A stretch of DNA of 64,000 bases. It comes from a virus. Location: positions 1 through 64,000 of IMG/VR virus record IMGVR_UViG_3300030450_002056; one strand, written 5' to 3'. Within the stretch, counting starts at the first letter, position 1. Every line of letters begins with the position of its first letter. The notes under the pieces were generated by a model. That model made no database searches. It saw only the letters and a list, made by a program, of their open reading frames with translations, and was not told the origin of the DNA. This document shows, piece by piece, positions 2,682 to 63,969 of this stretch. Made by a program: the position numbers and the translations under genes.

Positions 2682-2916
2682 TTTACCACCACTCATCTAA
2701 TCGGCCAGTCCTCAATTATCATCGCGAGCAGTTGCTCCCTAGCCCATGTATGGTTACAATATCCATGATACCGACAATTCTCTTTCGGGTTTTCTAGTGT
2801 TTCTATACAGATAAGGGCCAAATCGTGAGGCGACACTTTCACCCATGAACTCCCGCGATAAGTAGTTAAATCTTTTATTTTTTCTTCTCTATTCATTTTA
2901 CCACCACTCATCTAAT
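2679..2916. repeat. Perfect 23-bp direct repeat CATTTTACCACCACTCATCTAAT at 2679-2701 and 2894-2916
   Basis: Read directly from the sequence. It duplicates the polB stop/RBS/start junction. Confidence 0.9.
2693..2896 (-). CDS. Hypothetical protein flanked by a 23-bp direct repeat
   Basis: ORF track; likely start MNREE. Confidence 0.5.
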   Translation of the reverse strand: MNREEKIKDLTTYRGSSWVKVSPHDLALICIETLENPKENCRYHGYCNHTWAREQLLAMIIEDWPIR

Positions 2917-3803
2917 GACCTTTGCTTCAAGTCTTTCTTAATATCGTTAATATCCCAATTCATTGCCTCAAATATAGGTGCGGCCTTTCTCACTACTACT
3001 TCTGAATAGTGTTCCCAATCAGGAGTATAATCTTCAAAATCTTCTTCCAAGATACCTGATATATAATCAGGCCTAATATAGTTCCCCGTTAGTGGGTGCA
3101 TTAGTAGATGGCGATGATTTTGATTAACTTTCATAAACAAGAAAGAATCTTTAATTTCATTTCCTGTAACATGGTTATAAAAATATGCTCCCATTAAACC
3201 CGAACCAAAAGAAACCCTTTTACCATTTGATTTCCAATATTTACCTGTCTTCATTGCGCCTGTATATTCATGTTTATGTTCTCCAACGGATAAGGGTTTA
3301 TCTTCAAATATATGAAATGCCTTCTTACAATTCTCACAATACACATGGAAGCGTTCTTCTTTATAACTACTTCGCTTGATGATTTGATTTAATTCAATAT
3401 CACCACTCAATACATCATTGTATCTCTCACGAAGATAATCTAGAATTTCTATTTTAGTGCATCCATTAACCCACATCTTTAATGTGGTTATCTGAATTTC
3501 TTTTGCTAACTTAGTTTCTGATATTCTTTTTGCAGTAAAGCCAGTCATGAAGAATTCTTCTTCTTCTAAATATCTTCCATCTTTCCAAGAAATTAAACCT
3601 GCATTTCTATTCTTAGTTGCACCTACACCAAGACTACTAAAATACTTTTCAAATTCAAGCACTACAGGGTGTTCTTTTAATCCTAATACATTAGGGAATA
3701 TTTTTCTAACTTCTTCATTTAATTTAACTACTATTTCTTCTGCTTGCTCAACAGAATCTACTTGGCAATAAATCGAATCAGTATGACCATAAACTACCTT
3801 CAT
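2898..3803 (-). CDS. polB: Family B DNA polymerase, C-terminal subunit of a split PolB (motif C, thumb, PIP-like tail)
   Basis: YGHTDS (motif C variant), LEFEKYF, KNRNAG, GFTAKR, and C-terminal QRSLDEWW PCNA-interacting peptide. Confidence 0.9.
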   Translation of the reverse strand: MKVVYGHTDSIYCQVDSVEQAEEIVVKLNEEVRKIFPNVLGLKEHPVVLEFEKYFSSLGVGATKNRNAGLISWKDGRYLEEEEFFMTGFTAKRISETKLAKEIQITTLKMWVNGCTKIEILDYLRERYNDVLSGDIELNQIIKRSSYKEERFHVYCENCKKAFHIFEDKPLSVGEHKHEYTGAMKTGKYWKSNGKRVSFGSGLMGAYFYNHVTGNEIKDSFLFMKVNQNHRHLLMHPLTGNYIRPDYISGILEEDFEDYTPDWEHYSEVVVRKAAPIFEAMNWDINDIKKDLKQRSLDEWW

Positions 3804-4006
3804 TCTTCCAATCCCCAATTAGTAGTTTGCCACGCTCTTTCATGGAAATAATAGAATACAAATTTAGTTAACACTTCAACTGTAATTATACTTGCGGCAA
3901 CTATAGAATCACCAGTAATAAACCATGCTATTACAAAAGTATCTAGCGTTGCTATTAATCTCCATGTTATCGCTTTCATTCCGCTTCTTTTCTTTGTTGC
4001 ACTCAT
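3800..4006 (-). CDS. DUF2061-like small membrane protein
   Basis: KRSxxKAITWRxxAT...FYYFHERAW signature with two hydrophobic segments. Confidence 0.75.
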   Translation of the reverse strand: MSATKKRSGMKAITWRLIATLDTFVIAWFITGDSIVAASIITVEVLTKFVFYYFHERAWQTTNWGLEE

Positions 4007-4101: not shown

Positions 4102-4214
4102 TTATACAACCCCTCCATACAATCACACAGATGTCGCTTTTTATATGGCCCTCTGGAAGAATGAGGATTAAGAATTCCCCCACACTCCATACATTCTATA
4201 TCTTTCTCTATCAT
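4098..4214 (-). CDS. Putative 38-aa Zn-binding microprotein
   Basis: Manual translation MIEKDIECMECGG...HLCDCMEGLYK; ATGA-coupled to the stop of the polB N-terminal gene. Confidence 0.45.
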   Translation of the reverse strand: MIEKDIECMECGGILNPHSSRGPYKKRHLCDCMEGLYK

Positions 4215-5905
4215 AATTCTCTCACCCTAAATGCCGCCTCTCTAATTGCTTCTCTTGAACTAGCAGTAATGCTAGCGGCTAAATCAATATCACACCAACC
4301 GAATCCTTGATTACCAACAATGCCGTAGAAAGAGGCCATTAATCTTTTAACAGCCATTTGGTTATTATTCCACTTATTGTAATCTTCTTTAGTAGAAGAA
4401 TTTTTCATGTTAGTTTTATACTGATTCCTTAATGTTTTCAATTCCATAACAGAACGAGGAAGTAATCCTAATTTATCCGTTTTGTAATATAACATCTCAT
4501 GTTTTTCAACAGGAGAAAAATCTCTTGGAGTAGATATATTTACTGCAAACTCAGTTGGTTCGGTAGATTTAGTTTCCCATGAGATATTACGGGCAATCAT
4601 CATTGATGGGTATAGACCTGCAAAATCAAATGCCGCCACATTAAGATGCAATCCATTTGTTCCTTCAGATGTGGGGTCATAAATTAATGCCCCTTCATAA
4701 TCTTTACCATCTCTTTTACCACCTGTAGGGGCTTTCCAAGAAGCATTACGCATAAAGTATATAGAAGCCATGTGAGTTGCATGAAAACAAGCCTCAAACG
4801 GTGCTTTCAATATTCGTTGTAATGAAGTTATTGCATCAGTTAAGTTATTGTTATCATCAATCTTTCGTATTAAATCAACATCTATTAGTGCATATTCCAA
4901 ATATGTATCTGTATCTTCTTCCCATGCTCTTCTAAAGAATTCATTTTTTTCTGGGAATTTTTCACTAACAAGTTTCTTATTACCTAATATAGTTTCTGAA
5001 ACATAATCAAGTGATAAAGTTGGTAGTGTTCCTCTTTGGGAATCAATCCATTGTCGCTCAAATGCTAAATCTAAACTAACAACAATTCTACCTTTAATGG
5101 GCTGTTCTTTAGGGCCAAAAAAATCTCTATTGAATTTACTATCTCTAGAATTATATACATAATTAGAAACTTCTAATACAGGAGATAATAACCGAGCATC
5201 AATATTGTAAAATGCACATCTTTCTAATAATTTAGGTAGGTCGAATCTATTACCAAACCAAGCAATTAACATATCAGGGTCTTTTGCCGCACAATAATTT
5301 ACAAAAGTTCTTAACAACATTTCTTCATTCTGAGAAGTAATTAGAGTCACTTGAGAATCAGTATCAATTACAGGAGTATCTCTCTCATACAATTCATCAG
5401 TGGGAAACCAACAATAGAGTATGTATTCATCATCATAATTATCATAACAACTAATACAGGTAATTTTACCATCATGTTCTCCACCTTGTTGCCATTCCAT
5501 ATCCCAATACCACTTACGCATATCATATTCATGGTAAGGAACACCATCTATGAATCTATCAATTGATGCTCTGTAATGATACTGAACATCTGCTTCATAA
5601 GTTTGAGTATCATATAATTCCGTCATTTCTTTAGATACCACTTTTATTTCAGATGGATGATTACAAATTACTTTCGTCAGTTTTTCACCCTCTAAATTAT
5701 ACCACTCGCCTTCTTCATATCGCAGAGAATATACCTTACTGTTTTTCCATCTATCATTTTTATACATTTGGTCTGGCTTAAATGCAGTTTCTTTAACATA
5801 AAAATAAGGTGGGTAATCTGAAAATGGTATTATCTCAGATTCCCTTTCCTTATCTTCATTGCGCCATGCAAAATATATTCCTTTATTTGTATTTGATATT
5901 ATCAT
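4211..5905 (-). CDS. polB: Family B DNA polymerase, N-terminal subunit of a split PolB (3'-5' exonuclease, motifs A and B)
   Basis: ExoI WDMEW, ExoII FGNRFD, ExoIII YALID, motif A DFAGLYPS, motif B QMAVKRLMASFYG. The ORF ends before motif C. Confidence 0.92.
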   Translation of the reverse strand: MIISNTNKGIYFAWRNEDKERESEIIPFSDYPPYFYVKETAFKPDQMYKNDRWKNSKVYSLRYEEGEWYNLEGEKLTKVICNHPSEIKVVSKEMTELYDTQTYEADVQYHYRASIDRFIDGVPYHEYDMRKWYWDMEWQQGGEHDGKITCISCYDNYDDEYILYCWFPTDELYERDTPVIDTDSQVTLITSQNEEMLLRTFVNYCAAKDPDMLIAWFGNRFDLPKLLERCAFYNIDARLLSPVLEVSNYVYNSRDSKFNRDFFGPKEQPIKGRIVVSLDLAFERQWIDSQRGTLPTLSLDYVSETILGNKKLVSEKFPEKNEFFRRAWEEDTDTYLEYALIDVDLIRKIDDNNNLTDAITSLQRILKAPFEACFHATHMASIYFMRNASWKAPTGGKRDGKDYEGALIYDPTSEGTNGLHLNVAAFDFAGLYPSMMIARNISWETKSTEPTEFAVNISTPRDFSPVEKHEMLYYKTDKLGLLPRSVMELKTLRNQYKTNMKNSSTKEDYNKWNNNQMAVKRLMASFYGIVGNQGFGWCDIDLAASITASSREAIREAAFRVREL

Positions 5906-11796: not shown

Positions 11797-12266
11797 TATT
11801 CATACAACTCCTTACATAATGAGGCTTCAATGTTATGGTCAGGCCAAACCCCGCGACCTTGATTTGGTGAAAGTTGAACCCAATACCAATGACTCGGCAT
11901 TATTCTCCTTTTACCTTCTTGGATTGCATTTTGCTCAGCATAGGAGGCTAACTCTCTAACAAGCCCCTCAATCTGGTCTTTAACAAAATAAATCAAATCG
12001 TTAGATACCGACAACTCAGCAACTTCATCTTTGATTATCTTAGAGAGATTCAAAATTTTAGCCTTCCGTTTAGGGGTCTTTGGCTTGGTTGGAACGATAA
12101 TATCTCCTTTTTCATCAAAGTAAGGACACATTTCTACGCGATACTTTCGCAACCTACCCCTACTTTCCTCTGCGACCTTCTTCAAAAACGCATACCCATC
12201 TTCGATTTTTACACACTGATACGGCCAATTCTCTATTAGGGTCATTTTACCTACTTCAATCATCAT
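11796..12266 (-). CDS. Histone-fold protein with N-terminal extension
   Basis: LSKIIKDEVAELSVSNDLIYFVKDQIEGLVRELASYAEQNAIQEGKRRIMPSH aligns by eye with archaeal HMf (RIIK...RVSDDA...A...A...GRKTIK.ED). Confidence 0.72.
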   Translation of the reverse strand: MMIEVGKMTLIENWPYQCVKIEDGYAFLKKVAEESRGRLRKYRVEMCPYFDEKGDIIVPTKPKTPKRKAKILNLSKIIKDEVAELSVSNDLIYFVKDQIEGLVRELASYAEQNAIQEGKRRIMPSHWYWVQLSPNQGRGVWPDHNIEASLCKELYE

Positions 12267-13813
12267 ATCATCTCCATAACTGTGGTTAGTGTATCTATGT
12301 CTTTAGGGAACTTATCCTCTCGGATTCGTTTTACTCTCGGAAATCTTAGTCCGTAATTACCTTGCTCATCTTGGCTTACTAAATCAGCAGAAACTTCTAA
12401 TACTATTCTAGGTAAGAAATGGAATGTATCTCCTTCATATGAATCAACATTCTTTTTAAGGTTAGTAGTTAATAAAAACAATTGTGCCTCTGATAGTCCC
12501 GTTCCAACAGAACCTACTGGTATATACTCATCCCCGTCTAATACAGAAATTCCTAATGTCCCAAATACACCGCTTCTTTTACCTTCGCCATATTTTCCAG
12601 AAGTAATAACTACATCAAGAGATACTCTAGGAGGTTTATGTTTTAACCAACCTTTACTTCTCTTTCCAGATTGATAGGGCATATTACCATCTTTAATCAT
12701 TATACCCTCAAAGCCTAAATCAATTGCAGTTTGGTAAGCACTTGCTTCTGTAAAATCTCCATCTGAACCAAACACATAAGTTTGATATTCCTTTGGGACT
12801 ACTTTTTGTAGGGTTTCCATCCTTACACTTTGAGGTTGTTCTAAATATGATTTACCATCTAAAGACAATAAATCAAACACGGCTAATTTAACAGGGCATT
12901 GTTGAACAGCCTCCGCCTTATTTAGTTTGTGAACTCTCTTTGCTAACAGTTTATGTTCAGCAGGTGAACCATCTAAATTAATGGGGTATATTTCTGTGTC
13001 TAAAATTACATTTGTGCTTTCAAAATCTCTAACAATGTTAACAATGTCGGGATATTGGCTAGTTACAATATTGCCCTTCCGATTAAAAATAATTATAGAT
13101 ACAGCATTGGCAACCCATGATTTATGTATTTGATATCTATTACCATCATACTTAATATCAACTATAGCATTCCTAACAACATCTCTCGGTTTCTTTGCTT
13201 TAGCCAACATAGGCTTAACAAACTGCCCATGAACTAATTTACACTCTGGAACTTTTCCAGCATCTAACTCAGAACAAATCTTACTGGCTGTATTATATTT
13301 ATGGTATTCCATAACTTTAGAATCACTGTAATACTTTGATAAGACCTTTAATGGTATTTTATTATTAACACCATTTCTAGGCTTTCTAAGCCAATATCTA
13401 ACAAACCATTTTTTCTCTAAGCAATTCATTTGTTTTATTGCTTTAGAAAACCTAACGTAAGATGGGCCTGACTGTGATGCACAATCCATTTCAAGTAATG
13501 ATATAAATTCTGAAATAGTAATACCTGAAGAATCATTTTCACCTTCATACAATACATATAGACCCTCGCCCATATCTCCCCAACAATTTATTTCATATTC
13601 TAGTTCTTCTTCAAATAAACCTAATGCGCTAGAAACCCACTTTATAGATTTCTTAGAACCCATATTATTATTAGCATATTCTAAAGATAGAATCTTAATT
13701 ACAGATGGCTTATCTTCAAAAGAAGAAAGGTTCTCTGAAATTATTTTCACCTTTTCTGTGGGGGGTTTATCTTCAATTAGTTGGCACAAATTAGAAATCT
13801 GTTGAAGACTCAT
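12263..13813 (-). CDS. lig: ATP-dependent DNA ligase (archaeal type)
   Basis: KPMLA, KYDGNRYQIH, ILDTEI, VFDLL, EGIMIK, WLKHK, LRFPR. Confidence 0.95.
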   Translation of the reverse strand: MSLQQISNLCQLIEDKPPTEKVKIISENLSSFEDKPSVIKILSLEYANNNMGSKKSIKWVSSALGLFEEELEYEINCWGDMGEGLYVLYEGENDSSGITISEFISLLEMDCASQSGPSYVRFSKAIKQMNCLEKKWFVRYWLRKPRNGVNNKIPLKVLSKYYSDSKVMEYHKYNTASKICSELDAGKVPECKLVHGQFVKPMLAKAKKPRDVVRNAIVDIKYDGNRYQIHKSWVANAVSIIIFNRKGNIVTSQYPDIVNIVRDFESTNVILDTEIYPINLDGSPAEHKLLAKRVHKLNKAEAVQQCPVKLAVFDLLSLDGKSYLEQPQSVRMETLQKVVPKEYQTYVFGSDGDFTEASAYQTAIDLGFEGIMIKDGNMPYQSGKRSKGWLKHKPPRVSLDVVITSGKYGEGKRSGVFGTLGISVLDGDEYIPVGSVGTGLSEAQLFLLTTNLKKNVDSYEGDTFHFLPRIVLEVSADLVSQDEQGNYGLRFPRVKRIREDKFPKDIDTLTTVMEMI

Positions 13814-14039
13814 CTTGACCACCTCTATAGAATAAACTAATTACCGCCCTTTGAACGTGATGTTTATTTAATTTCTTATCGTCTGCATTATTAAATTCCC
13901 GTATAGTCATATTAATGACTTCCTCTAACCTATGGGCCATATATTTTTCTATTTCCACATAAGTATCGGAATTAACATAAGTTCCTCTTTCTAAATTATT
14001 CTTCATTTCTTTCTTCAATGTTCTCATAGATATTATCAT
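13791..14039 (-). CDS. Small histone-fold protein
   Basis: 82 aa with a helix-loop (YVNSDT)-long helix-loop (KKLNKHHV)-helix layout. Confidence 0.55.
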   Translation of the reverse strand: MIISMRTLKKEMKNNLERGTYVNSDTYVEIEKYMAHRLEEVINMTIREFNNADDKKLNKHHVQRAVISLFYRGGQDESSTDF

Positions 14040-20286: not shown

Positions 20287-20611
20287 ATTTTTCACCTATG
20301 TTATTTGTTTCTTTATATGTTTCAAATTTAACTAAATCGTCTAAAGCATTGAATGCGCTATCTTTCGATAGGCCAAGCATAGACATTAGACTACGCACTA
20401 AAAAATGCGTAAAAACTGCATTAGACATTCTATCTGTCTTCAACAATTCATATCTTTTATTAATTGAGGCTTTCACTTTGATATTATCAAAGGAATCATA
20501 AACACTCTGCTCTATTTTTAGCAGAGTTTTTTTAGTATATTTTTTATATTTCACACTGTCCACCTGCACAGGCAATTTCGCCTGTAAAATCGGTAAAGTC
20601 TTCTTCTTCAA
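20249..20611 (-). CDS. Hypothetical protein (start uncertain)
   Basis: ORF track; fills the gap downstream of the RNR. Confidence 0.45.
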   Translation of the reverse strand: MKKKTLPILQAKLPVQVDSVKYKKYTKKTLLKIEQSVYDSFDNIKVKASINKRYELLKTDRMSNAVFTHFLVRSLMSMLGLSKDSAFNALDDLVKFETYKETNNIGEKYEDKNKNIISRR

Positions 20612-54540: not shown

Positions 54541-57087
54541 GTGGCTATATCTGGCGTTTCCTTTGAAAAAGAAAAAAATGCGCTATCCAAGCGTGTTTTA
54601 GATTTCTTTGAGAGGACTCGCTATTCTTATTTATCTGCGAAAGAAGACCCAAATAAATATGGTAAAAAATGGAGAGCAACAGTTAAGTCTATTCGTGAGT
54701 CATTTGATGGCTTAGATTCTTTTACTAGAGTATTGAAGAAATACATTGATGAAGACGCAGTATTTGATGATAATGTAGAAGACCCTAATTCAACTCAAGC
54801 CAAGCGACTATATGATGCGATTAAAGAAATGAGGTTTCAATCTGAAGAAGTTTCTGACCCATTCGCTAATCAGTTGGGTGAAGAAGTAATTGATGTATTA
54901 CTCAATAATTCTAGTGTCTTTGCGGCCTTTATTCACTATGCCCTTCGCAAACATTCCCTCCCTATCCCTGCATCGGCATGGAAAAAACACGGCCTTAAGC
55001 CCGATGAAATAACTCAAAATGCCAACGGATTAGATTTAGAGATGAAAGATATACCCTTATACATTTCAGAACACTATGGGGAAGATAAAGACACTAAGCG
55101 TATCAAAACCAAATTTAAAAGCGTTTTGTCTATCCTAAAGAAAGTGTTTCTTGAGGAATATAGCGAAAAAGAATGGGATGCTCTAATTGATATAGATATT
55201 AAAAAGTCTGAAAAGAGTTCAGATGAGAAGTCTGAGATTAATTTCCTAACCCCTAATAAACCAATGTATCGAATATTTGAATTAAAAGACTTAGAGCAAT
55301 TGAAAGGTTTTTCTGGTGAATATGTAGTTCAAGAAAAATATGATGGTATGAGAGTGCAAATCCATAAAAATGGTAAAACCATTAAAATTCTTTCTTATAA
55401 CCAAAAAGATATTTCTGATAAATGTCCAGAGCAAATAGAAAGATTGCGTGGAAAGGAAATAGGGAACTGTATCTTAGATGGAGAGTTAATGATATTTAAG
55501 AACGGTAAAGCATTACATAGGGCCGCTACAATTTCACACATTTTTAAGAAGCCTATTGAAGATAGCCAATTAAGACTTCATGTTTTTGATATTATGGAAC
55601 ATGATGATAAAGATTTAATAGATGAACCTTTGAGGGAAAGAATTAATATTCTGTTATATCAATATGCTCAACATTCATCTGAAGAATTAGCATATCCTTC
55701 AAAGAAAGACACTAGAATTGCAGATTCTATAAAAGAAGTAGGGGATTATTCTGAAGAAATAATGAATCTACCCGCTTCTGAAGGTGTGGTTATTAAAGAT
55801 ATTGAATCTACATATCAATTAGGTTCAAGGAAAAATCCTAAGTGGGTTAAATGGAAGAAATTTGTTGATTTAGATGTTATTGTCTTGGATGATAAAACAA
55901 CAAAGAGTGGTCTTCATTCATATACTTTAGGTATTGGCCCATTATCCGCAGAACAAGCCCGTTCTTATAAGACTGTAGAATTGAAAGATAAAGCATATCT
56001 TTCTGTAGGTAAAGCACTAAACACTAAGCAATCCGTTAAGGTGGGTAGTATTGTTAGAGTTAAGGTGGATGAGGTAAAGAAGACTAAAGAGGGTTTTAGT
56101 TTATTCTCAGCGAAAGTTATTGAAATTCCTGAAGTGACTCAATCAGATAAATTAGAAACTTTAGAGTTATTATCAGACAAAGCCAAAAAATCAATTTGGG
56201 AAGATTTAGATAAGCCGTTTAAATATAAATTAAAAGGCGTAAAGAAAATGTATATTACTGATGAAATACATGGGGAAGCAGAAATTCTTATGAAATCTAA
56301 TTTAGATGGATTTACTATTTACGGTTTTAATGGTGATAGTTTAATGGAGAAACAAGCCCTATACGATATAGATGTTTGGAAAGAAGATTTACAAATTGCA
56401 CTTAAAAGTGTTCGTTCTGAGTTAAGAATGGCTATTAAAAATAAATTAATTGAGTGGGAAGAACCTGTAGAATTTGATAAAATACAAGAGTTTGTGTTAG
56501 AAAATTATATTGACCATTTTAAAGGGCCGGCATTTAATAGTGATGTAAAGAAATTAAAGAAGTGGTTAATTAGGCAAGAAGATATTGTTTATCATCGCAC
56601 TAATGATATATTTTCAGTGAACCCTACTGATATAGCAAAGGATGAAAAGGTTAATCCAAAAGAAGGTAAATTTACAATTACAACTACTGAAGATGATAAC
56701 TTATTATTAATTTATGTTGTAAATGATAAAAGGTTAGCGTGGTTAATAGATATTGAAGATTCTTCTGATATTTATAACTTATTTGGTAAATCTAATAAAT
56801 TTCCTGCTAAAATTGTTTTGGGTAATGCTAGAGAAAGTAAAATATTAGATAAAGGAATTATTACTCTTGGTGTTCAAAGGGACGGTTATCACGAATTTAA
56901 ATTAGCAGGTGATAAATTTGATACTAGATTGCATATTAGGGTTGTTCCTTTAAATGATGAAAAACATTGGGTAGTTTGGACAGGAAAGAAACAAACTATG
57001 CTAGAATCAAAGGATGACGATGGTTTGTGGGATATTACCGAAGATAGATATAAAAATTTACCCCTGCCCGAAGGCAATCCCGCTTAG
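54541..57087 (+). CDS. Second ATP-dependent DNA ligase-domain protein within the head module, with long N- and C-terminal extensions
   Basis: QEKYDGMRVQIH, ILDGEL, VFDIM, EGVVIK, WVKWK, OB domain; located immediately upstream of the prohead protease. Confidence 0.85.
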   Translation: MAISGVSFEKEKNALSKRVLDFFERTRYSYLSAKEDPNKYGKKWRATVKSIRESFDGLDSFTRVLKKYIDEDAVFDDNVEDPNSTQAKRLYDAIKEMRFQSEEVSDPFANQLGEEVIDVLLNNSSVFAAFIHYALRKHSLPIPASAWKKHGLKPDEITQNANGLDLEMKDIPLYISEHYGEDKDTKRIKTKFKSVLSILKKVFLEEYSEKEWDALIDIDIKKSEKSSDEKSEINFLTPNKPMYRIFELKDLEQLKGFSGEYVVQEKYDGMRVQIHKNGKTIKILSYNQKDISDKCPEQIERLRGKEIGNCILDGELMIFKNGKALHRAATISHIFKKPIEDSQLRLHVFDIMEHDDKDLIDEPLRERINILLYQYAQHSSEELAYPSKKDTRIADSIKEVGDYSEEIMNLPASEGVVIKDIESTYQLGSRKNPKWVKWKKFVDLDVIVLDDKTTKSGLHSYTLGIGPLSAEQARSYKTVELKDKAYLSVGKALNTKQSVKVGSIVRVKVDEVKKTKEGFSLFSAKVIEIPEVTQSDKLETLELLSDKAKKSIWEDLDKPFKYKLKGVKKMYITDEIHGEAEILMKSNLDGFTIYGFNGDSLMEKQALYDIDVWKEDLQIALKSVRSELRMAIKNKLIEWEEPVEFDKIQEFVLENYIDHFKGPAFNSDVKKLKKWLIRQEDIVYHRTNDIFSVNPTDIAKDEKVNPKEGKFTITTTEDDNLLLIYVVNDKRLAWLIDIEDSSDIYNLFGKSNKFPAKIVLGNARESKILDKGIITLGVQRDGYHEFKLAGDKFDTRLHIRVVPLNDEKHWVVWTGKKQTMLESKDDDGLWDITEDRYKNLPLPEGNPA

Positions 57088-61189: not shown

Positions 61190-61198
61190 GTGATTAAG

Positions 61199-61618
61199 AT
61201 GCCAAGTTTAGAAGACGATACAAGATTAGTAATGACGATTTTATTTGTAGGGGCAGTTAGTGGAGTAAATATATACTTCTATACCCAATATGGGTTTTTG
61301 TTCCCATATGCAGGATATAGCCATGCTTTATTATTCGGCATCCTAACCATAGGTGGGATAATGATTTTGAAGGCAATATTTGATTTGGCTCTATTCGATA
61401 GAATTGAAGATGCATTGCTTCAAAGAAAAATAGACGCTTATTGGGCAAGGAAACAAAGAGAAGAGGAAAATAGAAAGAGAGTTAGAGATACTATGCGCCA
61501 ATACGAGCAACAGTATAATCCTACTTTTGGTGTTCCTAATCCCCCTCCCCCTGCTACTTACTATGGGGCTGAGAATGAGAACACTATTAGCCCAACATTT
61601 TTAACTATGAATGAGTGA
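61199..61618 (+). CDS. Two-TM membrane protein with coiled coil and Pro-rich tail
   Basis: Two hydrophobic helices, RKQREEENRKR, PNPPPPATYY. Confidence 0.7.
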   Translation: MPSLEDDTRLVMTILFVGAVSGVNIYFYTQYGFLFPYAGYSHALLFGILTIGGIMILKAIFDLALFDRIEDALLQRKIDAYWARKQREEENRKRVRDTMRQYEQQYNPTFGVPNPPPPATYYGAENENTISPTFLTMNE

Positions 61619-61623
61619 GGTAT

Positions 61624-61848
61624 ATGGTATCAGAAATACTAATGGGTTTTGATGAATCAACATTAGCATATGACCTACAACGTGCGCATTCAGCAGATGT
61701 ATGGTTTCTAAGGGCTAGATTTTTTCTTTGGGGAACTATTGCATCGGTTAGTAGTTTTCTGTTGGGTCATGCTTTACCCTTTTGGGGGGTAAATATTTAT
61801 GGCTCAGTTTGGGGAGGATTGGTTGATTTTTGGACACATTTATGGTGA
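61624..61848 (+). CDS. Small membrane protein
   Basis: FFLWGTIASVSSFLLG TM segment plus a Trp-rich amphipathic tail. Confidence 0.65.
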   Translation: MVSEILMGFDESTLAYDLQRAHSADVWFLRARFFLWGTIASVSSFLLGHALPFWGVNIYGSVWGGLVDFWTHLW

Positions 61849-61866
61849 ATATAATGGTGATGTATA

Positions 61867-62538
61867 ATGTCGCTAATGGCTGGATTCATTGTAGTAATAG
61901 CGGAAAGTTTAGGGAGGCTTTGGAATAAAGTTCATTCAGTGCCTTTTGGAGTATATGGAGCAACTCAAGTAGGAAAAACAACACTACACCATCAATTAAG
62001 AACAAGAGGGGAAGTTCCTGATATAACAAATAGAACAGTTGGAAAAGAAAGAGCCACTAGAAAAGCAATCAAATTAGATGGAGATGTTAGAACAATAAAA
62101 ACAGCAGATGTTGGTGGAGAAACAATTTATTGGACTGAATGGCTTAAGGATATGCATGATAGAAAAGTGAAATATGTTATCTTTATGATTGATGATAGAC
62201 ACATGAATAAACATTATGATATTGAGCAACAATTATGCTGGACATTTTTAGTAGATACAATATGCTCTCCTTATTGGGATAAAGATAACAAAAAAGATAA
62301 AAAGAAATCACATGACTATCCATTAGCAGTAGGAGTATGGGCAAATAAATATGATATATGGAAAGACCGATACAATCACAACGGAGAAATAAAAGACCAC
62401 CCAATATTTGAACCTTTTAAAAGTGGAATGTCTAAATTAAATGATGCAGGAATACCATGTTTCAAATATATAGTAAGTGCAAAATCAGATTCAGAAATGG
62501 TGTATAGAGGAATACTAACCATGATTAAAGATTATTAG
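61867..62538 (+). CDS. Arf/Sar-like small GTPase (Ras superfamily)
   Basis: G1 GATQVGKT, G2 RTVG, G3 DVGGE, VIFMID, G4 ANKYD, G5 SAK; N-terminal hydrophobic/amphipathic helix. Confidence 0.88.
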   Translation: MSLMAGFIVVIAESLGRLWNKVHSVPFGVYGATQVGKTTLHHQLRTRGEVPDITNRTVGKERATRKAIKLDGDVRTIKTADVGGETIYWTEWLKDMHDRKVKYVIFMIDDRHMNKHYDIEQQLCWTFLVDTICSPYWDKDNKKDKKKSHDYPLAVGVWANKYDIWKDRYNHNGEIKDHPIFEPFKSGMSKLNDAGIPCFKYIVSAKSDSEMVYRGILTMIKDY

Positions 62539-62617
62539 GTGATTTTATGTTTGATGAGTTAATTGAGTTTCATAATCACTCCGGCGGAGTGTTTTATTAT
62601 TTATATGAGGTGAAGAC

Positions 62618-63277
62618 ATGAGTATGCAATATAACCCCCCATCATTAATTGGTGCTTCTAATGCTTATGTGGAACCAAATGCTTTTTTACCACAAAAGCA
62701 AATGGCTAGGGCCGCAGGAAGTGTAATGAAGTATGAGTTTAAATCATTAAAACCAAAGAAACAACTCAAAGAAATAATTAAGGTATTAATGCCGGAAAAG
62801 AAAAAATTTCTAAAAATTCCATATAAATTTGCTTTTAACATAAAAGATAGATGTGTTGTATGTGGGACTCAAAAGATATGGGAAGGAAACGACCCTATGA
62901 GGCCACCAATACCTTTACACAAAGTAAGAAAGGGTTATCCAATGAGGGGAAATTATTGTGAAAAACATTCCCACCTTCATAGGCAATATGAAATGTTAGA
63001 ACAACAAATGTTAGCAGAAGAACATGGGCTTTCTTTTAGTGCATATATCCCTACTGCTAGAAGCCTGAACCCATTAGCATCAGGCCCATTAACTTCTCTT
63101 AAGGAAGAAGATATAAGTAGTTTATCTTCATTAGGTTGGTCAATTAAACCCCCATCAGGGTTATCAGAATCTAAAGAAGAAGAACTATTTAGAATAATCA
63201 TAGAAGCAAATTCCATTAATGATAGAGTTAAAACTTTATTGAGAGAAGGAACTAAACTAATAGAAGTGGAGGAATAG
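62618..63277 (+). CDS. Zn-finger protein (CVVC...CEKH) downstream of the GTPase
   Basis: ORF track; GAGGTGA RBS. Confidence 0.65.
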   Translation: MSMQYNPPSLIGASNAYVEPNAFLPQKQMARAAGSVMKYEFKSLKPKKQLKEIIKVLMPEKKKFLKIPYKFAFNIKDRCVVCGTQKIWEGNDPMRPPIPLHKVRKGYPMRGNYCEKHSHLHRQYEMLEQQMLAEEHGLSFSAYIPTARSLNPLASGPLTSLKEEDISSLSSLGWSIKPPSGLSESKEEELFRIIIEANSINDRVKTLLREGTKLIEVEE

Positions 63278-63279
63278 AT

Positions 63280-63969
63280 ATGTGGGGAACAAGTAATAGT
63301 GCATTAGCAAAACAAATGACTGCCAGTAATCAAGAACAATTTAAGTCAATGAATAATTTATTGACTTTACAAGAAAACCATGTAGAAGAATTCTTCTATT
63401 ATCATGGTGAAGCATTTTTAACTTCTTTTGAGCAACTATTTGAAGATATAATTGAAAGAGTATTAGGACAAATGCTTCCTAAATTAAAATTTGTGCAAAA
63501 TACTTCTGGAGAATTAGAAATGCATCCTGATGCGTTAAGGGAATATGAAGGAATTACCTCTGCTAATATTCAACTAGATTTGCAAAATTTATTACAATCT
63601 GCAATTAATTCTGAAGTTGTTATGCAAAGGAAAATGGCTAAAGAACAATATTTACAATCTCAAGGATTTAATACGGGAGGGGCGGCACAAGCGGCTCAAG
63701 CCCAATTACCAGCACCACAAGGAATGTCGCCTAATAATATACAAGGCGCACCTGCTATGGGTGGGATGAACCAACAAATGATGCAACAGCAGATGGCTAT
63801 GAATAATGGTAGTGGTTATCCTATCCCTCCAAGTGGGTATGACCAATATAACAACCCATACTGGGTAGACCCCGCTACAGGTCAAATGACGTATACACCT
63901 CCACAAAGCGGTTTAGGATTAGGTGGAGCAATTAGTAAAGGAATTGCATGGGCTAAATGGTTGGCGTGA
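63280..63969 (+). CDS. Protein with Gln/Met/Gly low-complexity region, Tyr-rich hairpin and C-terminal amphipathic helix
   Basis: MNQQMMQQQMAM, YDQYNNPYWVDPATGQ, GLGGAISKGIAWAKWLA. Confidence 0.7.
   Translation: MWGTSNSALAKQMTASNQEQFKSMNNLLTLQENHVEEFFYYHGEAFLTSFEQLFEDIIERVLGQMLPKLKFVQNTSGELEMHPDALREYEGITSANIQLDLQNLLQSAINSEVVMQRKMAKEQYLQSQGFNTGGAAQAAQAQLPAPQGMSPNNIQGAPAMGGMNQQMMQQQMAMNNGSGYPIPPSGYDQYNNPYWVDPATGQMTYTPPQSGLGLGGAISKGIAWAKWLA

What the first reader, a model, noticed from the sequence alone, without database searches (positions are those of the whole stretch)
61199..63969. Arf-like small GTPase operon with membrane proteins: possible viral membrane-remodelling or egress machine
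Seen: a complete G1-G5 GTPase with Arf/Sar-type details (RTVG, DVGG, switch-II Trp, IFMID, ANKxD, N-terminal amphipathic helix). It is preceded by two membrane proteins, one with a coiled coil and PPPPxxY tail. It is followed by a Zn-finger protein and a Q/M-rich low-complexity protein with a C-terminal amphipathic helix. Known: Arf/Sar GTPases insert an N-terminal helix in a GTP-dependent way to recruit coats and bend membranes; they are typical of eukaryotes and Asgard archaea, not tailed viruses. No recognisable holin/endolysin is present in the window, and the operon lies in the late region. Inference: a GTP-timed lysis/egress or membrane-compartment system. Glu replaces the catalytic Gln (DVGGE), suggesting a GAP-dependent or slow switch.
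Basis: partly seen in the sequence, partly recalled or inferred. Interest (0 to 1): 0.85.

Follow-up and report, generated by a model that had tools for sequence, protein, structure and literature searches.

The report
Magrovirus Arf-like GTPase membrane cassette
A 95-kb tailed virus of the kind linked to abundant ocean archaea (Marine Group II) carries its own very divergent Arf/Sar-type GTP switch in a deeply conserved gene block with two small membrane proteins and two orphan proteins; no paper I could search describes it, and it is an untested candidate for how such viruses act on, or leave through, the host membrane.

Summary
Five co-oriented genes lie at 61199-63969. The middle one (61867-62538) is a complete small GTPase with G1-G5 motifs and an N-terminal hydrophobic helix. 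Pfam does not call it Arf. A profile built from viral sequences alone finds the Asgard Arf GerdArfR1 (8OUN) first (E 1.6e-7). Fold comparison puts Arf6, SRbeta, Arl2, Sar1, G-alpha and a Rag-like GTPase above Ras, Rab and Rho. Three distant relatives pass the Pfam Arf threshold.

The family is almost confined to viruses: over 570 IMG/VR contigs, against two contigs among 185,579 species genomes. The block (2-TM protein, 75-aa protein, GTPase, Cys/His protein, Gln/Met-rich protein) recurs in four deep clades with different neighbours, so it is an autonomous module. Only the GTPase and the two downstream proteins are detectably homologous between clades.

I add three points. A micro-ORF (62547-62621) was missed. 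The "catalytic" position varies (Q/E/D/H). The PPxY tail and the zinc ligands are not conserved.

The window matches magrovirus group B. Function is inferred: a membrane-targeted switch acting late, most likely in egress. This scan has already found the same cassette on other genomes (95 notes, at least 72 genomes).

The parts
61199..61618 (+). TM1: about 139-aa hairpin membrane protein (a GTG start at 61190 is also open). Two hydrophobic segments, a Lys/Arg/Glu-rich cytoplasmic coiled-coil-like stretch and a Pro-rich tail.
   Evidence: Present at position -2 in 76 of 77 clade-1 loci with a TM-grade segment. Same architecture but no significant sequence similarity in clade 2 (hhalign E 0.028) and in clades 3-4. 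PPxY in only 5 of 56 copies; FL[TS] near the C-end in 42 of 56. No Pfam or PHROG family.
61615..61848 (+). TM2: 74-77-aa Trp-rich small protein with one moderately hydrophobic Gly/Ser/Thr-rich segment. Its start overlaps the TM1 stop.
   Evidence: Present at position -1 in 76 of 77 clade-1 loci. Median 5 Trp. Best Kyte-Doolittle window 1.26 here, against family medians of 1.66 and 1.94. Analogous 70-85-aa proteins in clades 2-4, not significant by hhalign (E 0.045).
61867..62538 (+). Small GTPase, 223 aa, of the Arf/Sar/SRbeta side of the Ras superfamily. It has an N-terminal hydrophobic amphipathic helix (2-22), G1-G5 motifs, E85 at the Gln position, W92, and a polybasic insert at 134-152.
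   Evidence: Viral-only PDB profile search: GerdArfR1 8oun_A E 1.6e-7. VIA Z 14.4 Arf6, 14.2 SRbeta, 13.2 Sar1, against 11.3-12.6 for Ras/Rab/Rho. Pfam matches sub-threshold only. 355 homologues. Over 570 IMG/VR contigs.
62547..62621 (+). Micro-ORF of 24 aa. It starts 9 nt after the GTPase stop, and its TGA overlaps the ATG of the next gene. In most relatives that have it, it is a Cys4 knuckle peptide; the cysteines are lost in this window.
   Evidence: a micro-ORF of 20-33 aa was recovered at the same place and phase in 21 of the 22 gap-bearing clade-1 loci printed; one search counts 26 of 45 distinct loci with a gap of at least 30 nt. Core [ED]N[CSTH]S[MGI][SGI] is kept; most read NCSMxxxCxCxxC. 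Coding status is inferred from conservation only.
62577..62591 (+). GC-rich hairpin (6 bp, 3-nt loop) followed by a T-run. It looks like a terminator, but it lies inside the micro-ORF.
   Evidence: Not conserved as a structure in relatives. Function undecided.
62618..63277 (+). +1 protein, 219 aa. A conserved basic helix (46-57), then a small beta/Cys-His unit (C79, C82, C114, H117) and a long helix. The fold is unassigned.
   Evidence: core pLDDT 82-90. Homologous between clades 1 and 2 (hhalign 93.9%, E 1.6e-7). 1107 relatives, all unnamed. No fold match (Foldseek E > 2, VIA Z <= 4.4). No PDB sequence match. Cys/His ligands lost in clade 4 and partly lost in L167.
63280..63969 (+). +2 protein, 229 aa. 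A helical N-terminal domain, a Gln/Met/Asn/Gly/Pro-rich low-complexity stretch and a Gly/Ala/Trp amphipathic C-terminus.
   Evidence: Homologous between clades 1 and 2 (hhalign 85.6%, E 5.6e-6). Median Q+M+N+G fraction 0.35 and 0.39. No PDB, Pfam or Atlas relative.

Best explanation
This is the magrovirus 'Arf-like GTPase membrane cassette': a virus-specific block of five genes plus a micro-ORF, transcribed with the late (virion) genes.

Shown: the central protein is an intact small GTPase whose nearest known relatives are Arf, Sar, SRbeta and Asgard ArfR. It carries an N-terminal hydrophobic amphipathic helix and a polybasic loop. It always follows a 2-TM hairpin protein and a ~75-aa Trp-rich hydrophobic protein. 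It always precedes two orphan proteins that co-evolve with it.

Inferred mechanism: as in Arf and Sar1, GTP binding frees the N-terminal helix, which inserts into the host cytoplasmic membrane. TM1 and TM2 mark the site, acting as receptor or exchange factor, or as the pore- or curvature-forming effector. The +1 and +2 proteins are recruited as regulator and scaffold; the +2 protein has a low-complexity region and its own amphipathic end. GTP hydrolysis sets the timing.

The output I favour is a late membrane step, namely breaching or reshaping the membrane for virion release. These viruses show no recognisable holin or endolysin among the proteins scanned here.
For: GTPase identity:
- Motifs are complete and invariant.
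- Arf-side affinity comes from several routes: a viral-only profile against PDB, the wider-family profile, Pfam Arf passed by relatives P0154, P0181 and P0189, VIA fold ranking with and without Foldseek, and ESM Atlas neighbours.
- The alignment to GerdArfR1 starts in the N-terminal helix and matches DxGGQ...W. That helix is needed for membrane binding of the Asgard ArfRs (bioRxiv 10.1101/2024.02.28.582541).

Module:
- Gene order is strict in 80 of 80 close loci.
- The same architecture occurs in three more clades at 33-36% GTPase identity or less. The flanks differ: head/neck genes, a giant ORF, a chaperonin, or glycosyltransferases.
- The GTPase, +1 and +2 proteins are homologous across clades.

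Virus-specific and under selection.

Late context: same strand as, and contiguous with, protease, MCP, tail tube and tape measure.

TM1 is the only small multi-TM protein in the late region.

Weak sign of expression: a 166-nt contig from an RNA library lies on 61882-62045 with 3 mismatches.
Against: - No experiment exists, and no partner has a known fold or family.
- The window protein misses the Pfam Arf cut-off.
- It has Ala, not an aromatic residue, before the G3 Asp, and a Ras-like SAK G5.
- The N-terminal helix is modelled at low confidence (pLDDT 48-58).
- TM1 and TM2 are not detectably homologous between clades.
- TM2 of this window is only weakly hydrophobic.
- In clade 1 the block sits where head-completion or internal virion proteins could lie.
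- The RNA contig could be DNA carry-over.
- The absence of lysis genes was tested on only part of the proteome.
Confidence: 0.45

Rival explanations
1. Membrane-bound assembly or targeting platform. The GTPase works like SRbeta or Sar1 to bring viral proteins or nascent capsids to a membrane site, or to insert viral membrane proteins. Its role is to organise replication or assembly, not release.
For: SRbeta is among the top fold matches (Z 14.2 and 13.6) and among the sub-threshold Pfam matches. In clade 3 the block follows a GroEL-like chaperonin, and in clade 4 it follows glycosyltransferases and further TM proteins. The Met/Gln-rich partner could act as a scaffold.
Against: No SRalpha/SRX, longin or coat-like partner was detected. 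The N-terminal helix is too short for a true SRbeta-type TM anchor. Tailed viruses are not known to need membranes for assembly (general knowledge).
Confidence: 0.2
2. Virion-carried entry proteins. TM1, TM2, the low-complexity protein and perhaps the GTPase are packaged in the head, like the ejection or pilot proteins of some phages, and form or regulate a channel through the host membrane during DNA delivery.
For: In clade 1 the block lies between capsid/decoration genes and neck/tail genes on the late strand. It contains small TM proteins and a Gly/Gln/Met-rich protein, which recalls ejection proteins (general knowledge).
Against: In clades 2-4 the block sits away from the head genes. A nucleotide switch with intact G motifs inside a capsid has no precedent that I know of. 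The virus has a tape-measure protein with its own TM segments for membrane penetration.
Confidence: 0.12
3. Host take-over or superinfection exclusion. The GTPase and membrane proteins change the host envelope or signalling to block secondary infection or a host defence.
For: Membrane location and a switch protein would suit a sensor or blocker. In clade 4 the block neighbours glycosyltransferases.
Against: No PADLOC match. The genes lie with the late virion genes rather than the early genes. The deep, near-universal conservation seen here looks more like a core function than an accessory function that turns over quickly.
Confidence: 0.08
4. There is no joint function. A stray, decaying host-derived P-loop NTPase happens to sit beside unrelated small ORFs.
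For: Pfam and NCBIfam give only sub-threshold matches.
Against: 70 invariant columns, including all G motifs, across 22 sequences at 62-96% identity. GTPase identity (70-95%) is in the same range as MCP identity (55-98%) across the 80 close loci. The block is conserved in four deep clades. It is almost absent from cellular genomes.
Confidence: 0.02

Closest known systems
Asgard archaeal Arf-related GTPases (GerdArfR1, PDB 8OUN/8OUM; bioRxiv 10.1101/2024.02.28.582541)
   Same: Best sequence match among solved structures for a profile built only from viral sequences (E 1.6e-7). The alignment starts in the N-terminal amphipathic helix and runs through G1, DxGGQ and the switch-II Trp. Fold Z 13.8. 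Both are prokaryote-side proteins with no myristoylation.
   Different: About 13% identity. The viral protein has a polybasic insert before G4 and an HPIF motif, Ala instead of Phe before the G3 Asp, SAK at G5, and E/Q/D/H at the Gln position. It is virus-encoded and fixed in a cassette with membrane proteins. No nucleotide-dependent helix switch has been shown.
Eukaryotic Arf/Arl/Sar1 and SRbeta (Pfam PF00025, PF09439)
   Same: Top fold matches are Arf6 (Z 14.4), SRbeta (14.2), Arl2 (14.0) and Sar1 (13.2). It shares the DxGG[QH] motif with Trp 11 residues on, and an N-terminal membrane helix. Relatives P0154, P0181 and P0189 pass the Pfam Arf cut-off.
   Different: The window protein itself does not reach the Pfam Arf or SRPRB cut-offs. 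No Sec7, Sec12, ArfGAP, coat or SRalpha partner is recognisable. G-alpha and a Rag-like GTPase score within one Z unit, so the fold alone does not single out Arf.
Phage holin-type lysis cassettes
   Same: A small hairpin membrane protein with a charged cytoplasmic C-terminus (TM1) and a second small hydrophobic protein, both encoded among late genes. The virus has no other obvious lysis gene among those scanned.
   Different: No holin family match. No adjacent endolysin. TM1 carries a long coiled coil. A GTPase and two soluble partners have no counterpart in known lysis cassettes.
Small GTPases encoded by other viruses (e.g. mimivirus Rab, PDB 5XC5)
   Same: A virus-encoded Ras-superfamily GTPase (Z 12.6).
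   Different: Giant-virus Rabs are close copies of eukaryotic host genes. This family is a deep, virus-specific lineage in archaeal-type tailed viruses, with its own conserved partners.

Membership tests
Ras-superfamily (TRAFAC) small GTPase | G1 P-loop GxxxxGK[ST] | tested here: met
   GATQVGKT at 31-38. G31, G36, K37, T38 and T39 are invariant in 22 relatives. G31, G36 and K37 are invariant across the wider family.
Ras-superfamily (TRAFAC) small GTPase | Switch-I Thr (G2), G3 DxxG, G4 NKxD, G5 SA[KL] | tested here: met
   T57, D81/G84, N160/K161/D163 and S204/A205/K206 are all invariant in clade 1. NKxD is present in all 130 distinct sequences of clades 1 and 2.
Ras-superfamily (TRAFAC) small GTPase | G-domain fold | tested here: met
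   AF2 model (pLDDT 68, pTM 0.71). At least 500 Foldseek matches at E <= 0.001, all listed rows being small GTPases or G-alpha. VIA Z up to 14.4 over about 160 residues at rmsd 3.0.
Arf family (Arf/Arl/Sar/SRbeta) | Match to Pfam PF00025 above the gathering score | tested here: not met
   The window protein has no Arf hit. Best matches are MMR_HSR1 18.9, Roc 18.0 and SRPRB 16.8 bits, all under their cut-offs. The genome-level search finds nothing. Distant relatives P0154 (27.2), P0181 (36.5) and P0189 (26.8) do pass the 22.3-bit cut-off.
Arf family (Arf/Arl/Sar/SRbeta) | N-terminal amphipathic helix directly before beta-1 | tested here: met
   Predicted helix at 2-22. An N-terminal segment of 23-27 aa is present in all 19 sequences tested, with hydrophobic moment 0.23-0.51. 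It aligns to the helix of GerdArfR1. This is prediction only.
Arf family (Arf/Arl/Sar/SRbeta) | Nucleotide-dependent interswitch toggle that releases the helix | not testable with these tools
   It needs GDP- and GTP-state structures or membrane-binding assays.
Arf family (Arf/Arl/Sar/SRbeta) | G3 of the type DxGG[QH], with Trp 11 residues after the Asp | tested here: inconclusive
   DVGG and W92 are present and align with DLGGQ...W of GerdArfR1. The Q/H position is E here and varies Q/E/D/H in the family. The residue before the Asp is Ala or Ser, not aromatic.
Arf family (Arf/Arl/Sar/SRbeta) | Arf-type proteins are the nearest solved relatives | tested here: met
   Sequence profile: GerdArfR1 E 1.6e-7, Arl8 2e-4, then Rab33 and KRas at about 1e-3. 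Fold: Arf6, SRbeta, Arl2 and Sar1 at Z 13.2-14.4, against 11.3-12.6 for Ras/Rab/Rho. G-alpha and LokiRagO are tied with the top group.
Holin (for TM1/TM2) | Small late protein with at least one TM and a charged C-terminus, next to an endolysin; match to a holin family | tested here: inconclusive
   The topology features are present. There is no Pfam or PHROG holin match, and no endolysin among the proteins scanned. Holins are too diverse for a negative call.
ArfGAP zinc finger (for the +1 protein) | CxxC-x16-17-CxxC finger with a catalytic Arg; ArfGAP fold | tested here: inconclusive
   The spacing here is C-x2-C-x31-C-x2-H. No Arg is invariant. There is no fold match at all (Foldseek E > 2, VIA Z <= 4.4). 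The ligands are lost in clade 4.
Magrovirus group B (Philosof et al. 2017, PMC5434244) | Genome of about 65-100 kb; head-tail module; archaeal-type replisome; split DNAP; RNR; two ATP ligases, one inside the structural module; tRNAs | tested here: met
   95,498 b, CheckV 100%. PolB in two pieces at 2898-3818 and 4211-5905, RFC-like ATPase, ligase at 12263, RNR at 20544. Second ligase at 54541, terminase and portal. Protease and MCP. Three tRNAs. The hallmarks are as described in the paper. No named magrovirus sequence was compared directly.

The most novel reading that the evidence does not exclude
The cassette is a self-contained, virus-encoded Arf/Sar-like membrane machine. A GTP-loaded, helix-inserting GTPase is nucleated by two viral membrane proteins. 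With its two partners it assembles a coat-like or rupturing structure that releases tailed virions from a wall-less archaeon. This would be the first GTPase-driven egress system of a prokaryotic virus. It would also be a large virus-borne reservoir of Arf-type switches outside Asgard archaea and eukaryotes.
Probability: 0.22. Interest if true: 0.9.

Novelty: new variant of a known kind. Interest (0 to 1): 0.72.

Why it matters
Magroviruses are reported to be among the most abundant archaeal viruses of the surface ocean (PMC5434244). How any tailed archaeal virus leaves its host is not known. The one Poseidoniales-virus paper that discusses egress proposes holins for a different order (PMC11706807).

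A deeply conserved, virus-specific Arf-type switch tied to membrane proteins gives a concrete, testable candidate for that step. It also widens the known range of Arf-like GTPases, which are usually discussed as eukaryote and Asgard signatures, to viruses of a euryarchaeal lineage. That bears on how helix-inserting GTPases arose and spread.

All proteins are small and could be expressed and assayed on archaeal-type liposomes.

Tried and rejected
The genomic context of P0154, P0181, P0189 and P0138 therefore stays unknown. Pattern scans for P0154 and P0138 found nothing.
- The alignment of distant GTPases was too variable for a locus scan.
- P0129 is absent from viral contigs but was found in metagenome contigs.
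- ArfGAP or other known fold for the +1 protein: no match.
- Known relatives of the +2 protein: PDB E >= 0.05. ESM Atlas scores of 0.77 are within noise.
- PADLOC and NCBIfam: nothing for any of the five proteins.
- Fused or longer forms of the GTPase: none, which is weak evidence.
- INPHARED phages: no tblastn match to the GTPase.
- PPxY 'late domain' idea for TM1: present in 5 of 56 copies, so dropped.
- The sigma-70 promoter scan gave fewer sites than shuffles and does not apply to an archaeal virus.
- The terminator-like hairpin after the GTPase gene is not conserved and lies in the micro-ORF.
- RNA-library contigs cover mostly protease and MCP. Parts of the cassette without cover allow no inference.
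- The first Foldseek list (Rho/Rab/Ras/G-alpha) did not discriminate subfamilies.
- A phylogeny against reference Arf, Ras, Rag and G-alpha sequences was not made, because no tool handed me the reference sequences.
Full report
**What is there.**
The window is the first 64 kb of a 95,498-base virus record rated 100% complete. It has these features:
- a replication arm on the minus strand: PolB in two pieces, an RFC-like ATPase, an ATP-dependent ligase, a class II RNR and a PD-(D/E)XK nuclease;
- three tRNAs;
- a late arm on the plus strand: terminase, portal, a second ligase, prohead protease and an HK97-type MCP.

Beyond the window come neck-size genes, a tail tube protein, a tail assembly chaperone, a 733-aa tape-measure-like protein and giant tail proteins. 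Split DNAP, RNR, tRNAs and a second ligase inside the structural module are the published hallmarks of group B magroviruses (PMC5434244). The best annotated PolB matches are haloarchaeal tailed viruses at about 25% identity.

**The observation.**
All five ORFs are real and co-oriented. The GTPase carries every G motif, and these are invariant in relatives. TM1 has two hydrophobic segments with a positively charged C-terminal coiled-coil-like region, so an N-in/C-in hairpin is the likely topology. TM2 is Trp-rich. Its hydrophobic segment is weak in this copy but of TM grade in most relatives. The +1 protein has a C-x2-C ... C-x2-H set, and the +2 protein is rich in Gln, Gly, Ala, Pro, Asn and Met.

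The genes run on from their neighbours with gaps of 0-79 nt, so "operon of five" is a functional label, not a transcriptional one. In the 79-nt gap I found a 24-aa micro-ORF (62547-62621). It starts 9 nt after the GTPase stop and ends in an ATGA overlap with the next gene. A micro-ORF of 20-33 aa was recovered at the same place and phase in 21 of the 22 gap-bearing clade-1 loci printed (one search counts 26 of 45 distinct loci with a gap of at least 30 nt). Most of these are Cys4 knuckle peptides; the cysteines are lost in this lineage.

**What kind of GTPase.**
Pfam gives only sub-threshold hits (MMR_HSR1, Roc, SRPRB, Ras), and the Arf model finds nothing in the genome. A search of 1.84 billion representatives with the family profile returns only 79 proteins at E <= 1e-3, so the family is isolated.

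Even so, five lines point to the Arf side:
- A profile built only from two viral clades finds the Asgard Arf GerdArfR1 (8OUN) first at E 1.6e-7. Arl8 follows at 2e-4, and Rab33 and KRas near 1e-3. The alignment runs from the N-terminal helix through DxGGQ and the switch-II Trp (identity of 8OUN).
- A wider family profile is dominated by Sar1, Arl3, Arf1/6 and Arl8.
- Distant relatives P0154, P0181 and P0189 pass the Pfam Arf cut-off.
- VIA-align ranks Arf6, LokiRagO, SRbeta, Arl2, G-alpha and Sar1 at Z 13.2-14.4, above Ras/Rab/Rho at 11.3-12.6. This holds as a re-ranking of Foldseek hits and as an independent search.
- ESM Atlas neighbours beyond the viral clusters are Arf-annotated.

Departures from Arf are Ala before the G3 Asp, SAK at G5, a conserved polybasic insert before G4, and an HPIF motif. 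I therefore call it Arf-like and do not file it as a member of PF00025. The residue after DxGG is E in this window, but across 130 distinct sequences it is Q, E, D or H. The Glu is a family-wide variable, not a special feature of this virus.

**Is the neighbourhood meaningful?**
More than 570 IMG/VR contigs encode close relatives. In all 80 fetched loci the order is protease, MCP, three small genes, TM1, TM2, GTPase, +1, +2.

A second clade (127 contigs, 33-36% GTPase identity) shares no BLAST-detectable neighbour yet has the same architecture. There a 2-TM protein with a Met/Gln-rich coiled coil and Pro-rich tail is followed by an ~80-aa hydrophobic protein, the GTPase, a Cys/His protein and a Gln/Met/Gly-rich protein. 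The block lies between a 2,282-aa ORF and an HTH protein.

Profile-profile comparison between the two clades:

| Protein | hhalign probability | E-value |
|---|---|---|
| GTPase | 99.9% | 1.7e-37 |
| +1 | 93.9% | 1.6e-7 |
| +2 | 85.6% | 5.6e-6 |
| TM1 | 1.8% | 0.028 |
| TM2 | 1.2% | 0.045 |

Two further clades repeat the pattern. One sits behind a GroEL-like chaperonin. The other sits behind glycosyltransferases and has an extra acidic protein; there the Cys/His ligands of the +1 protein are lost.

So the block moves as a unit, and it is not simply part of the head-neck structure. Cellular genomes almost lack it: two contigs in one MAG among 185,579 species, probably mis-binned virus.

**Partners.**
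None of the four has a Pfam, PHROG, NCBIfam, PADLOC or PDB relative. The +1 protein folds with a confident core (pLDDT 82-90 over about residues 40-140) that matches nothing solved. The ArfGAP idea is unsupported. Its best-conserved piece is a basic helix (K/R-x-x-I-K-x-x-x-K-x-L-x-P) found in all four clades.

**Mechanism.**
Shown: an intact, strongly constrained GTP switch with a hydrophobic N-terminal helix, fixed next to membrane proteins, on the late strand.

Inferred: an Arf/Sar-style GTP-dependent insertion of the helix at sites defined by TM1 and TM2, recruitment of +1 and +2, and a late membrane event.

I favour egress for three reasons. TM1 is the only small multi-TM protein in the late region. 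No lysis gene was recognised among those scanned. The host lineage is not expected to have a murein wall (general knowledge).

The rivals are a membrane assembly or targeting platform, virion-carried entry proteins, and exclusion or take-over. The sequence data do not exclude them.

One 166-nt contig from a metatranscriptome library lies on the GTPase gene with 3 mismatches. This is a weak hint of transcription.

**Literature and earlier notes.**
Four magrovirus or archaeal tailed-virus papers do not mention a GTPase in their main text. A search for "magrovirus" plus "GTPase" finds no paper. Supplements of the 2017 paper were not held.

This scan has noted the same cassette many times on other genomes (95 notes, at least 72 genomes). 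Those notes reach the same reading. I looked them up after my own tests, and they did not change my conclusions.

Noticed in passing
window 62547-62621 (+): A 24-aa micro-ORF between the GTPase and +1 genes, with an ATGA overlap with the next start. A 20-33-aa micro-ORF was recovered at the same place in 21 of the 22 gap-bearing clade-1 loci printed (26 of 45 distinct loci have a gap of at least 30 nt). Most are Cys4 knuckle peptides (NCSMxxxCxCxxC); the cysteines are lost in this window.
   Followed up: partly
window 62577-62591 (+): The best terminator-like hairpin of the region (6 bp, then a T-run). It lies inside the micro-ORF and is not conserved in relatives, so it may be coding sequence rather than a terminator.
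   Followed up: partly
G000 64896-64905 (just beyond the window): A run of 10 N splits the gene after the cassette into 308-aa and 159-aa ORFs. Relative L001 has one 491-aa ORF. This is an assembly gap, not a frameshift.
   Followed up: yes
L162, L163 (NZMJ01000101.1, NZMJ01000024.1): The only two hits in the species-genome collection are contigs of one MAG labelled Maricaulis sp. They carry the magrovirus-type GTPase at 74% and 63% identity, so viral contigs were probably binned into a bacterial MAG.
   Followed up: no
L167 2820-4478; L164 3250-4782: In a third clade the cassette directly follows a GroEL-like chaperonin gene (PHROG 5725, E 4e-49 and 6e-42).
   Followed up: partly
L177 14-3114 and 5217-5996; L168 5229-5999: In a fourth clade the cassette follows two glycosyltransferase genes. 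It holds an extra ~250-aa protein with a long Asp/Glu run between TM2 and the GTPase, and the +1 protein has lost its Cys/His ligands.
   Followed up: partly
window 2898-3818 and 4211-5905 (-); 12263-13822 (-); 54541-57087 (+): A split family B DNA polymerase and two ATP-dependent ligases, one inside the structural module. These match published group B magrovirus hallmarks.
   Followed up: partly
clade consensus of the +2 protein (L080 7359-8066 and others): The +2 proteins of clades 1-3 begin with a conserved MG(L)FG(T/N)(S/N)N. The window copy starts MWGTSN. The meaning is unknown.
   Followed up: no
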